DNA of 64,000 bases, taken from the NCBI RefSeq assembly GCF_054482525.1, contig NZ_CM137006.1. The stretch is one strand, 5' to 3'. How positions within the stretch are numbered: the first letter of the stretch is position 1; the number at the start of each line of letters is the position of its first letter. Below are positions 54,001 to 57,000 of this stretch, piece by piece. The position numbers are program-made.

Positions 54001-57000
54001 TGTTAATGCGGATGTTGCCACCATAGCCAAAGGTGCCTGTGTATTTTTTTGAGTTTCAATTATTGCATTTCTCACCAGCGGTGGTAGTGCATATATCGGA
54101 TAAGGATTTTCTGGTGCAAGTAAGCACATAAAAGCCTCTCTTTTCATTAATGGGTTAGTAAAATAGCAGCAAATCCCGCTACAATAGCGAAAATAGCTGC
54201 TATTCAGACCTGATGCTCTGAGAAATACAGAGCATTTGTAGATCTGATGTTTAATAAACCGATAAGGTTAATTCAGTGAAGACTGTATTATTCACCACGA
54301 AATATCATTCATATTTCTCATTCTTAATACCTCCAGAAATTATTTCACTAATACCTTTCCCCCGGTCTTTTCCCTTTCTCCAGAACCATAGTGTAAATAT
54401 TAACGGCCCCACGTAAATTTCCGGGACTGCATACGTCAACCTGATTCTGACAGGCAATTGACATCGCTGTTAATACTGACATTGCAACCAGAGTCAGAGG
54501 TACTTGTTTATTGTATTGAACTTTAATTATTGCATTCCCTATCATTGATGGTCATGCATATACTGAATACGGCATATCCGGTTTGATGTAAGGCATAAAT
54601 GCTTCCTTTTTCGTAATACGTTTCGGTTATAGCAGCAATTACCGCTACAATAGCGACAATAGCTGCTCTTTCAACAATGAATGCTGGAAATTCTGTTTAT
54701 CAATTAAACTTCTGGCTAAATTGTTCTTATGCTTCTTTTTCCTCCTGAGGTGATCACGTGATGACAAAAACTTATCTGCTCATGGTCATATCTGAAGAAA
54801 GCGTATGTCTCACTTCGTCATTAACACCTTTGACTGCTGATCTGGCAGGTACAGTATGTAAAGTAAGCCATTCGTCAATAGCTGATGAACGCCAGCCCAC
54901 AGAACCACTACCAAGACGTACCGGCCTGGGGAAGGTTGCATCGTAGTATTTCGATAACGGATTCATTTTTTCGTAAATTGTCGAACGAGATATACCTAAC
55001 AATTGGCTCAGTTCAGGCATCCGTAAGATGCGTGAAGGAGTCCTGCAGTGTCCGGATTGATCTGGCATTTTATCCCCCATAGTGTGGTGAACTGTCGTTA
55101 CAGTTTGTATTCCCCGGGTAAATTTGTCTGCGTAAAAAAATGGGTTGAGCAAAAAGACAATAAATAATTAAAAATCAATATGATAGAAAACGACAGCATT
55201 AGTGTTATTTTACTTTTCCCTTATCGCTGTCGATTCTCATTATCATTCATGGCAAAAAAACAGCAAAAGAGGCCCTGGTAATGACTCCTGTCAGTAGTAC
55301 ATGTGTTTTCGATAAATGAACCAATGGCTTTTCGTGAATTTCCAGGGAGCGTAAAAAGTAAATCGTTTTCCGGGCAGGTCGTTTGATGTGAGTACGAAGT
55401 GTCAGATTGTTGCGCTCAATGCGCCGGGTAAATATCTTGCCGACAAGATGCTTATCCTGTGGCATTTCTCTGGTATAACTGCTCCGGTTGTCTCTGGTTA
55501 TCATGCCTGCGGAGAATGGCTTCAGGAATTCCGGCAACTCACGGCATGTTTCATCAGTGCGAGGACCAAAAGTGTAAGCCAGCACACCGTCAGCTTTGGT
55601 CTTATACGCGTACCAGTGCCACTGCTGACGAGCTTTGTTTTCGACAAAACTCCATTGTTCATCAAGTTCACAGATAAGTGCCACATCGACACTGGCGGCT
55701 GGAGATATGGTTACTTTACGTGGTGAGCGTTTTTTAAAGTGAGAATGACGGTGTTGATATCCACCTTCAGCGTTCTGGAGCTATCGCGAACCCCGGCTCC
55801 GTTATGAACCATTTCAACAATTTGCTCTTTAATGCCTGGTTTTCGGGTTTCGTAGATGTAATTCAGTTGAAATACACGTTTGCAGGATTAGCACTGGAAA
55901 CGCTCATGATCTGAGGTGCTGTGATCATAACGGTACACTTTATAGGAATTACAGCGGGGAGAATATACTGTAACTGTTGCCATATGGTCTCCAGATACCA
56001 ATAGAATACAACATTAATCTATCGTCAGAAGGCATCACCGGGGCCTTCTGACATAATCTGTTAATACGTGTACTATTACCCTGTTCAGAAAACATTGATT
56101 CAAAAATGAAAACCAGTTAACAGAAAAGCAAAATGATATAATGTTAAAATTTTATATAGTGCAATAAAAGGAGAATGTTATGTATAATTTTATCACTATA
56201 ATGTATGATGTCTTTTCATGTTTTGGTGTTCTGGCTAAAAACCAGAATAGCCGTGACATCCGAAATATTAAAAATTTTTCCTCACATCAACATTCACTGG
56301 GCGACATGTTTGATGAATTAATAAACATTATTGATAAAGAACAAGTATTGAGTAAAGAACAACGAAAAGTTATATTTAGGAGATATGAAGATCTCTATGT
56401 TAAGCTAATGCACTATTCTGTTTTTACAGACAAAACACATCAAATAATAAAACAAAAATATTTTAATGACATTGTACCAATGATTCTCGCACTCGACATC
56501 AGGAACACATATCGCCCGGATAATGAGATGGCATTTTACTATCATATTCATTCTTTTCTCACTCAGATACCGGATAATGAGGATGATATATATCATGCTG
56601 CAAGGACATATCTGCGAAATTACGTTAAGTTATGTTTATCCGGATACACGCCAGCGAATGCGCATTTCAAAGATATCTTTGATGGCGTATATGAATTCAT
56701 TCGTAATATTCGCAAAAACAGTACACCAGGAAAAACAAAACTTATCGCAACTATCAACACATGCAAAGAAACCTGTAAACATCTGCTTTATTTAAGTAAT
56801 GAAGACAAGGAAAAAATAATTTCTGACTTAGATAAAGTTCAGGTTGCATGTTATTATCTCACTATATTACTGGCTTTCGAAAGACGAACTTCATTAACAA
56901 GCACCCTGGCAACTTTATATAAAATGCTGATAAGCGAAAGAGAAGTTTCAGAATATGAATGCCAGTTATTATATTTAACCAACCCAATAGATGTAATGAA

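What the first reader, a model, noticed from the sequence alone, without database searches (positions are those of the whole stretch)
55247..56040. Divergent IS1-family element with a nonsense codon in insA
Both ends are recognisable, but the InsA-like frame meets TAA within its zinc-finger region, so the element is probably immobile. It separates the integrase-proximal orphan gene from the alpA module.
Basis: partly seen in the sequence, partly recalled or inferred. Interest (0 to 1): 0.3.

Follow-up and report, generated by a model that had tools for sequence, protein, structure and literature searches.

The report
Dead IS1-family insertion sequence fossil
This is a 763-bp dead copy of a divergent IS1-type jumping gene, stuck at one spot in an E. 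coli genomic island and already flagged as a pseudogene in public annotation, so it is ordinary.

Summary
A 763-bp IS1-family element lies on the minus strand at window 55277-56039.

What is still recognisable:
- GGTRATG-type terminal inverted repeats.
- InsA zinc-ribbon and HTH domains.
- An A6C slippery site in the correct register.
- An InsB' DDE domain.

The insA frame hits TAA at codon 32, between the two cysteines of the second zinc knuckle, where intact relatives have Lys or Arg. It is not the only lesion:
- The first zinc cysteine is Ser.
- Two 1-bp deletions frameshift the InsB C-terminus and remove its stop.
- 16 of 81 columns invariant across eight intact IS1 transposases are changed.

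About 1,030 of 5,426 complete E. coli genomes carry the element, including EDL933, CFT073, Nissle 1917 and ATCC 25922. It is always at the same site between the 605-aa orphan gene and alpA, and no empty site was found. PGAP annotates it as "IS1 family transposase; frameshifted; internal stop". Three island lineages share the insertion and have decayed independently and neutrally.

The closest intact relatives are 72% identical in protein and 73% in DNA. It is a fixed, immobile fossil of an otherwise unsampled IS1 lineage. Interest is low.

The parts
55277..56039 (-). Whole IS1-family relic, 763 bp (intact relatives 766-768 bp)
   Evidence: Alignment to intact Klebsiella and Enterobacter IS1-family elements and to IS1A defines both ends. 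100% identical copies in E. coli are annotated 'IS1 family transposase; frameshifted; internal stop'.
56017..56039 (-). Left terminal inverted repeat (IRL), GGTGATGCCTTCTGACGATAGAT
   Evidence: 15 of 23 positions match IRR. It starts with the GGTRATG shared by IS1A and the other relatives.
55277..55299 (-). Right terminal inverted repeat (IRR); reads GGTAATGACTCCTGTCAGTAGTA on the + strand
55711..55983 (-). insA pseudogene (would be 90 aa): ATG 55983-55981, natural stop TAA 55713-55711
   Evidence: Translation.
55960..55962 (-). Codon 8, TCT (Ser), where all eight intact relatives have the first zinc-ligand Cys
   Evidence: The ~90%-identical orthologous copy L024 still has TGT (Cys) here, so the change is derived.
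55888..55890 (-). Premature TAA, codon 32, between the two Cys of the second zinc knuckle
   Evidence: Relatives have AAG (Lys) or CGN (Arg). Shared by the window-type and ATCC 25922-type lineages. The 50-bp context is identical in 1018 of 1033 records.
55729..55735 (-). A6C slippery heptamer (AAAAAAC), in the register TTA AAA AAC as in IS1
   Evidence: frame offset the same as IS1A and the Klebsiella element. Mutated to ATAAAAC in the ATCC 25922 lineage.
55247..55684 (-). InsB-frame ORF (145 aa from a GTG). It carries the DDE domain, loses its frame near the C-terminus and runs out through IRR into the flank.
   Evidence: Pfam DDE_Tnp_IS1, E 2.5e-57. D, D and E codons are retained at 55663-55661, 55492-55490 and 55417-55415.
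55329..55332 (-). A-run with a 1-bp deletion relative to intact relatives (CACGAAAAAG to CACGAAAAG); first C-terminal frameshift
   Evidence: Shared with L024. Absent from the rare variant P0074.
55305..55310 (-). Site of the second 1-bp deletion. Together the two deletions put the ancestral stop (TGA 55293-55291) out of frame.
56040..56047 (.). Possible degraded target-site duplication, orf605 side (+ strand GGGGCCTT)
   Evidence: 6 of 8 positions match the alpA-side copy at 55269-55276 (GAGGCCCT). Inconclusive.
55269..55276 (.). Possible degraded target-site duplication, alpA side

Best explanation
This is a fossil insertion sequence. An IS1-family element from a lineage distinct from IS1A-G, IS1N, IS1H and ISEc30 inserted once into the roughly 340-bp divergent intergenic region between the 605-aa orphan gene and alpA. 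This happened in an ancestor of the P4-type-integrase genomic island family of E. coli (the SpLE1 / serX-serW island type). It then lost the ability to make transposase and has been carried passively, decaying neutrally.

In this copy, translation from the insA start stops at codon 32, about 50 codons before the A6C slippery site. So neither the InsA repressor nor the InsAB' fusion transposase can be made. If the stop were read through, the protein would still lack a zinc-ligand cysteine and have a scrambled C-terminus.

Shown here: the anatomy, the lesions, the single-locus distribution and the neutral substitution pattern. Inferred: loss of activity (not assayed), a single insertion event, and no function for the host or the island.
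For: Family assignment and anatomy:
- Pfam domains.
- Alignment to intact relatives.
- A6C site in register.

Lesions:
- TAA at codon 32, Cys8-to-Ser, and two 1-bp deletions.
- 16 of 81 columns invariant in eight intact IS1 transposases are changed, against 0-5 private changes in seven of those eight; the outlier IS1A, 37% identical, has 72 by the same count.

Fixed at one locus:
- The element is found in 1033 of 5426 genomes.
- The two flanks are found in the same 1036 records, always as two pieces spanning 1363 bp (600 bp of flank plus the 763-bp element).
- There is no empty site, even at blastn sensitivity.
- Ten further contexts of the identical AlpA all show the same 1111-bp spacing.
- Genomes with two copies also have two flank copies, which indicates island duplication.

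Age and independent decay:
- The ATCC 25922 / CFT073 lineage (96.5% identical) shares the TAA and Ser8. It adds a 2-bp insertion, a mutated slippery site and another deletion.
- The L024 lineage (~90% identical) has the same junctions and keeps Cys8, Gly115 and Trp167. It has 13-bp and 11-bp deletions over the second knuckle.

Neutrality:
- Between lineages, the InsB' frame has 5 synonymous and 11 non-synonymous codon differences (23% synonymous expected at random). insA has 0 and 4.
- The relic is no better conserved than its flanks, and IRL is the least conserved part.

No live relative:
- The best intact InsAB' is 72% identical.
- No full-length InsA of 85% identity or more was found. Only 51-60-aa fragments from after the stop, and indel-shifted copies from the same locus, turned up.

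Independent annotation: PGAP marks it a pseudogene with a frameshift and an internal stop.

Background on IS1 (768 bp, imperfect IRs, A6C -1 frameshift, zinc finger and HTH needed for IR binding, DDE motif, 8-9-bp duplication): PMC12428005.
Against: - Activity was not measured.
- The target-site duplication is only 6 of 8 positions, so the insertion event cannot be reconstructed cleanly.
- No empty site was found in any relative.
- The A6C site and the DDE residues are still intact in this copy, so decay is incomplete.
- IS1 transposase can act in trans on elements with cognate ends when over-produced (PMC12903888). Trans-mobilisation by a compatible relative is therefore not formally excluded.
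- 14 of the 15 records with a mismatch near the TAA were not inspected individually.
Confidence: 0.93

Rival explanations
1. The element is still functional. The TAA would be bypassed by stop-codon readthrough, by a suppressor tRNA, or by re-initiation giving an HTH-only InsA. The intact A6C site would then yield some transposase.
For: The A6C heptamer is in the correct register and the D, D and E residues are retained in this copy. A 33-aa ORF beginning at Met57 covers the HTH region.
Against: Readthrough would still give a protein with Ser in place of a zinc-ligand Cys and a frameshifted C-terminus. 16 of 81 universally invariant residues are changed. Substitutions between lineages look neutral. 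Other lineages have destroyed the slippery site or deleted the knuckle. There is one locus only in about 1,030 genomes.
Confidence: 0.02
2. The stop codon is a sequencing or assembly error in this window, and the real element is intact.
For: A single-base difference can create a TAA. Some low-quality assemblies of this locus do carry spurious indels (P0121 and P0149).
Against: The identical 50 bp around the TAA occur in 1018 of 1033 independent complete-genome records. The TAA is also present in lineages diverged by 3.5%. Several other lesions are shared.
Confidence: 0.005
3. The relic has been co-opted. The insA promoter in IRL is no longer repressed, because no InsA is made. It could transcribe through the element and out of IRR into alpA, 208 bp downstream on the same strand, and so alter expression of the island's excision regulator. 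Alternatively the relic insulates the two divergent promoters.
For: The relic and alpA are co-oriented. The InsB-frame ORF reads out through IRR. No terminator-like site is predicted between the relic and alpA on the minus strand. The insertion is fixed in every island copy seen.
Against: Fixation is explained by a single ancestral insertion and hitch-hiking. The relic is not more conserved than its flanks, and IRL, where the promoter would sit, is the least conserved segment: 79% identity to L024. No sigma-70-like match was found in IRL on the minus strand. A promoter-like site lies between IRR and alpA (55208-55180) and two lie between IRL and orf605, so both genes probably keep their own promoters. 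These matches are no more frequent than chance.
Confidence: 0.04
4. It is a non-autonomous element, still moved in trans by a related IS1-family transposase encoded elsewhere in the genome.
For: Both IRs are present. IS1 transposase can mobilise defective IS1 copies and mini-IS1 in trans when abundant (PMC12903888). Many E. coli carry IS1, IS1H, IS1N-like or ISEc30 elements.
Against: No second site occurs in about 1,030 genomes, many of them rich in IS1-family elements. The IRs are diverged from IS1A and from the closest relatives.
Confidence: 0.01

Closest known systems
IS1 (IS1A-G, canonical 768-bp E. coli/Shigella element; insA, A6C -1 frameshift, InsAB' DDE transposase)
   Same: The overall plan is the same. 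Length is about 765 bp, with GGTRATG terminal inverted repeats. InsA has an N-terminal zinc ribbon and an HTH. The TTA AAA AAC slippery site is in the same register, about 6 codons before the insA stop. InsB' has the D, D and E residues (features per PMC12428005).
   Different: Only 37% protein identity to IS1A InsAB', and no blastn-detectable DNA similarity to IS1A. The coding capacity is destroyed.
IS1N / IS1H / ISEc30 and unnamed enterobacterial IS1-family elements (Enterobacter mori, Klebsiella plasmid pKP121-2, Enterobacter bugandensis plasmid)
   Same: This is the subgroup the relic belongs to. Protein identity is 62-72% over the full length and DNA identity 70-73%. End sequences and length (766 bp) are the same type.
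   Different: It is too distant to be an isoform of any of them. By the usual ISfinder convention (my knowledge) isoforms share more than 90% DNA or 95% protein identity. Those elements are intact and multi-copy. This one is a single-locus pseudogene.
PGAP pseudogene 'IS1 family transposase; frameshifted; internal stop' in the int-orf605-alpA module of E. coli serX/serW-type islands (e.g. O157:H7 EDL933, CFT073, Nissle 1917, ATCC 25922)
   Same: It is the same object. Identity is 96-100% at the same junctions.
   Different: Nothing of substance. This window's copy belongs to the majority lineage, which still has the A6C site.

Membership tests
IS1 family (as an IS-derived sequence) | Short element (about 740-800 bp for the IS1 group) bounded by imperfect terminal inverted repeats starting GGT(A/G)ATG | tested here: met
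   763 bp. IRL and IRR match at 15 of 23 positions, and both start GGTRATG as in IS1A and the relatives.
IS1 family (as an IS-derived sequence) | InsA-type N-terminal zinc ribbon and HTH domains | tested here: met
   PF03811, E 1.4e-12, and PF12759, E 2e-20, on the repaired translation.
IS1 family (as an IS-derived sequence) | DDE_Tnp_IS1 catalytic domain in the -1 frame | tested here: met
   PF03400, E 2.5e-57, full-length match 1-131 of 131. D108, D165 and E190 are retained.
IS1 family (as an IS-derived sequence) | A6C (AAAAAAC) -1 frameshift site near the end of insA, in the register A AAA AAC | tested here: met
   TTA AAA AAC at 55737-55729, with the same frame offset as IS1A and the Klebsiella element. 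Lost in the ATCC 25922 lineage.
IS1 family (as an IS-derived sequence) | 8-9-bp target-site duplication | tested here: inconclusive
   Best candidate matches at 6 of 8 positions. No empty site was found for comparison.
Functional (autonomous) IS1-family element | Uninterrupted insA frame with four zinc-ligand cysteines | tested here: not met
   TAA at codon 32 and Cys8-to-Ser.
Functional (autonomous) IS1-family element | Uninterrupted InsAB' frame from the insA start to the InsB stop after a -1 shift | tested here: not met
   Besides the TAA, two 1-bp deletions frameshift the last ~16 codons and remove the stop.
Functional (autonomous) IS1-family element | Evidence of transposition: copies at more than one site | tested here: not met
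   All roughly 1,087 places in 1,033 genomes have the same flanks.
Isoform of a named IS (IS1A-G, IS1N, IS1H, ISEc30) | Near-identity to the reference (ISfinder convention, from my knowledge: over 90% DNA or over 95% protein) | tested here: not met
   IS1A 37% aa, IS1N 68-69% aa, ISEc30 62-63% aa, IS1H about 73% nt.

The most novel reading that the evidence does not exclude
The fossil may not be wholly inert. No InsA repressor can be made, so the IRL promoter would be constitutively open. It could send transcripts through the relic and out of IRR into the co-oriented alpA gene. That would set a basal level of the island's excision regulator, and so of island excision and transfer, in about a fifth of E. 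coli strains.
Probability: 0.04. Interest if true: 0.4.

Novelty: already known. Interest (0 to 1): 0.08.

Why it matters
It matters little. The locus is a routine IS pseudogene, already flagged by automated annotation in over a thousand E. coli genomes.

It has two modest uses:
- It is a shared derived marker showing that the int-orf605-alpA modules of the SpLE1-, CFT073- and Nissle-type islands descend from one ancestor. The lineage-specific lesions could serve as markers for typing these islands.
- It is the only sampled trace of an IS1 lineage with no intact member in the databases searched here.

Tried and rejected
- Empty-site search: a 600-bp query of the joined flanks against 5,426 E. 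coli genomes, in megablast and blastn modes. Every hit has the element, so there is no pre-insertion sequence.
- Other contexts of the identical AlpA protein: all ten keep the 1111-bp spacing that contains the relic.
- Search for an intact close relative with the repaired InsAB' and the repaired InsA. Nothing intact above 72% identity. The two apparently 81-84% identical 'InsA' hits (P0121, P0149) are indel-shifted copies of the same relic at the same locus.
- The '80-90% identity' class was checked. It consists of short partial matches to other IS1-family elements.
- A perfect 10-bp inverted repeat spans the IRL junction. I considered a second inverted IS end, target-end homology or a regulatory hairpin. 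The shuffle p is about 0.009 for one of eight tests, and the IS-side arm is not conserved in the orthologous L024 copy. I rejected it as chance.
- A second copy of the element, or of IS1A, in the window: none.
- Literature search for a name or description of this relic ('IS1nuxi', IS1+SpLE1): nothing specific.
- Not attempted: scans of genome contigs or metagenome contigs for an empty site (exact-match patterns are unlikely to hit diverged relatives), and a homologue search for orf605.

Full report
**What is at the coordinates**

Reading the minus strand of window 55200-56100 shows a 763-bp element.
- It starts GGTGATGCCTTCTGACGATAG at 56039 and ends GGAGTCATTACC at 55277.
- The two ends are imperfect inverted repeats, 15 of 23 positions matching. 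Both begin GGTRATG, as in IS1A.
The right limit is one base too far.
- Only one copy is present in the window, and IS1A gives no blastn hit there.

**Family assignment**

I built a conceptual InsAB' translation with the stop replaced by Lys, a -1 shift at the A-run, and the two deleted bases restored. It matches three Pfam families over their full lengths:
- DDE_Tnp_IS1, E 2.5e-57
- HTH_Tnp_IS1, E 2e-20
- Zn_ribbon_InsA, E 1.4e-12

DNA alignment with IS1A and with intact 766-bp IS1-family elements from a Klebsiella plasmid, an Enterobacter plasmid and Shigella fixes the register of every feature. The expected organisation of IS1 is summarised in PMC12428005: 768 bp, imperfect IRs, insA/insB, the A6C -1 frameshift, zinc finger and HTH needed for IR binding, a DDE motif, and an 8-9-bp duplication.

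**Lesions**

insA starts at 55983. Codon 32 is TAA (55890-55888). It lies between the two cysteines of the second zinc knuckle, where the Klebsiella element has AAG (Lys) and others have Arg. It is not the only defect.
- Codon 8 is TCT (Ser), where all eight intact relatives have the first zinc-ligand Cys.
- A 1-bp deletion in an A-run (55332-55329) and a second 1-bp deletion (about 55310-55305) frameshift the last ~16 codons of InsB. They put the ancestral TGA (55293-55291) out of frame, so the ORF runs through IRR to 55247.
- At 81 alignment columns invariant in eight intact IS1-family transposases (37-72% identical to the relic), the relic differs at 16. Examples are Gly20Asp, Gly115Glu, Trp167Arg, Gln187Arg, Leu203Pro and Ser211Leu. 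By the same leave-one-out count, seven of the intact sequences have 0-5 private changes; the outlier IS1A, 37% identical, has 72.

Some features are still intact in this copy:
- The slippery heptamer is in the register TTA AAA AAC (55737-55729).
- The D, D and E codons are retained.

**Distribution**

The element is found at 95% identity or more in 1,033 of 5,426 complete E. coli genomes.
- A query of the two 300-bp flanks joined together hits the same 1,036 records. In every case but one it hits as two pieces spanning 1,363 bp, that is, with the element between them.
- The exception is strain WB61. There the relic is present, but the alpA side has been replaced by other IS debris.
- A blastn-sensitivity repeat found no diverged empty site.
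- Ten further assemblies encoding the identical AlpA all have the same 1,111-bp orf605-alpA spacing.
- Genomes with two copies also have two copies of the flanks, which indicates island duplication and not transposition.
- PGAP annotates the locus as 'IS1 family transposase; frameshifted; internal stop'.
- Carriers include O157:H7 EDL933, O26 11368, CFT073, Nissle 1917 and ATCC 25922.
- The 50 bp around the TAA are identical in 1,018 of 1,033 records. One of the 15 others was inspected. It keeps the TAA and has an extra indel downstream.

**Age and mode of evolution**

Three lineages of the same insertion were aligned.
- The ATCC 25922 / CFT073 type is 96.5% identical. It shares the TAA and Ser8. 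It has gained a 2-bp insertion in insA, a mutated slippery site (ATAAAAC) and a further deletion.
- A rarer type, L024, is from an E. coli whose adjacent dgcT is identical to that of Nissle. It is about 90% identical with exactly the same junctions. It keeps Cys8, Gly115 and Trp167. It has 13-bp and 11-bp deletions across the second knuckle and an extra C-terminal deletion.

So there was one ancient insertion followed by independent decay.
- Between lineages, codon differences in the InsB' frame are 5 synonymous to 11 non-synonymous, with 23% synonymous expected at random. In insA they are 0 to 4.
- The relic is not better conserved than its flanks. IRL is the least conserved part, at 79% identity to L024.

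None of this suggests selection on the relic.

**Relatives**

- The best intact InsAB' among 5.8 billion protein clusters is 72% identical (Enterobacter mori). IS1N is 68-69%, ISEc30 62-63% and IS1A 37%.
- In DNA, the closest are a Klebsiella plasmid element and IS1H, both at about 73%.
- Every hit at 83% or more is a fragment of this same relic: 142-154-aa InsB ORFs with the frameshifted tail, 51-60-aa insA fragments from after the stop, or indel-shifted assemblies of the same locus.
- The lineage therefore has no sampled live member.

**Context**

- The relic lies in the divergent spacer between a 605-aa gene (56180-57997, + strand) and alpA. The 605-aa gene has no Pfam or PADLOC match.
- alpA is on the minus strand, PF05930, with its PGAP start at 55068.
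- Beyond alpA lie a DUF3987 fragment and a YfjI/DUF3987 gene.
- A P4-type integrase lies beyond the orphan gene (58184-59386, minus strand).
- Promoter-like matches lie between each IS end and its neighbouring gene, but they are no more frequent than in shuffled sequence.

**Verdict**

The finding is real and correctly interpreted, with small coordinate corrections and additional lesions. It is an ordinary, already-annotated IS pseudogene. Trans-mobilisation is conceivable in principle (PMC12903888), and so is co-option as a read-through promoter for alpA. Neither has any positive support here.

Noticed in passing
window 42933-50649: A type I Mokosh anti-phage system sits in the same island. 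MkoB is at 42933-44369 on the minus strand (PADLOC E 1.9e-151). MkoA is split into an N-part (48832-50649, profile 1-527) and a C-part (44366-47557, profile 568-1603). An IS3-family transposase ORF (48060-48950, + strand) lies between them, so MkoA appears to be disrupted by an IS insertion.
   Followed up: partly
window 59843-59870 (-): A lone CRISPR-DR4 repeat (Rfam RF01317, 50 bits) lies between the island integrase and clpA (PGAP name; AAA+ Clp ATPase domains by Pfam). PGAP annotates RtT sRNA there in similar genomes. Neither ARAGORN (whole window) nor Rfam (50000-64000) finds a tRNA gene next to the integrase.
   Followed up: partly
window 56024-56052: A perfect 10-bp inverted repeat, GTCAGAAGGC / GCCTTCTGAC, spans the IRL junction, with one arm in the IS and one in the flank. 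Shuffle p is about 0.009 for one of eight tests. The IS-side arm is not conserved in the orthologous L024 copy, so it is probably chance.
   Followed up: yes
window 55589-55734 (element positions 306-451): 14 of the 24 substitutions between the window-type and ATCC 25922-type relics fall in this 146-bp stretch: 9.6% divergence against 1.6% elsewhere. This suggests a recombination tract or patchy ancestry between island lineages.
   Followed up: no
window 54348-54545 (-): A 65-aa ORF annotated as a DUF3987 fragment lies just upstream of the full-length YfjI/DUF3987 gene (52696-54147). It resembles that gene's N-terminus and looks like a partial duplication or remnant.
   Followed up: no
window 56180-57997 (+): The integrase-proximal 605-aa gene is AT-rich and has no Pfam or PADLOC hit. 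It is conserved with the island (608 aa in the ~90% lineage L024). Its function is unknown. Gene-cargo slots next to the integrase in P4-like elements often hold defence genes (my knowledge).
   Followed up: partly
P0074 (E. coli variant of the relic InsB ORF): One rare E. coli variant reads ...EKAIGSFIEN..., so it lacks the first 1-bp A-run deletion. That deletion is therefore either polymorphic or reverted by slippage.
   Followed up: no
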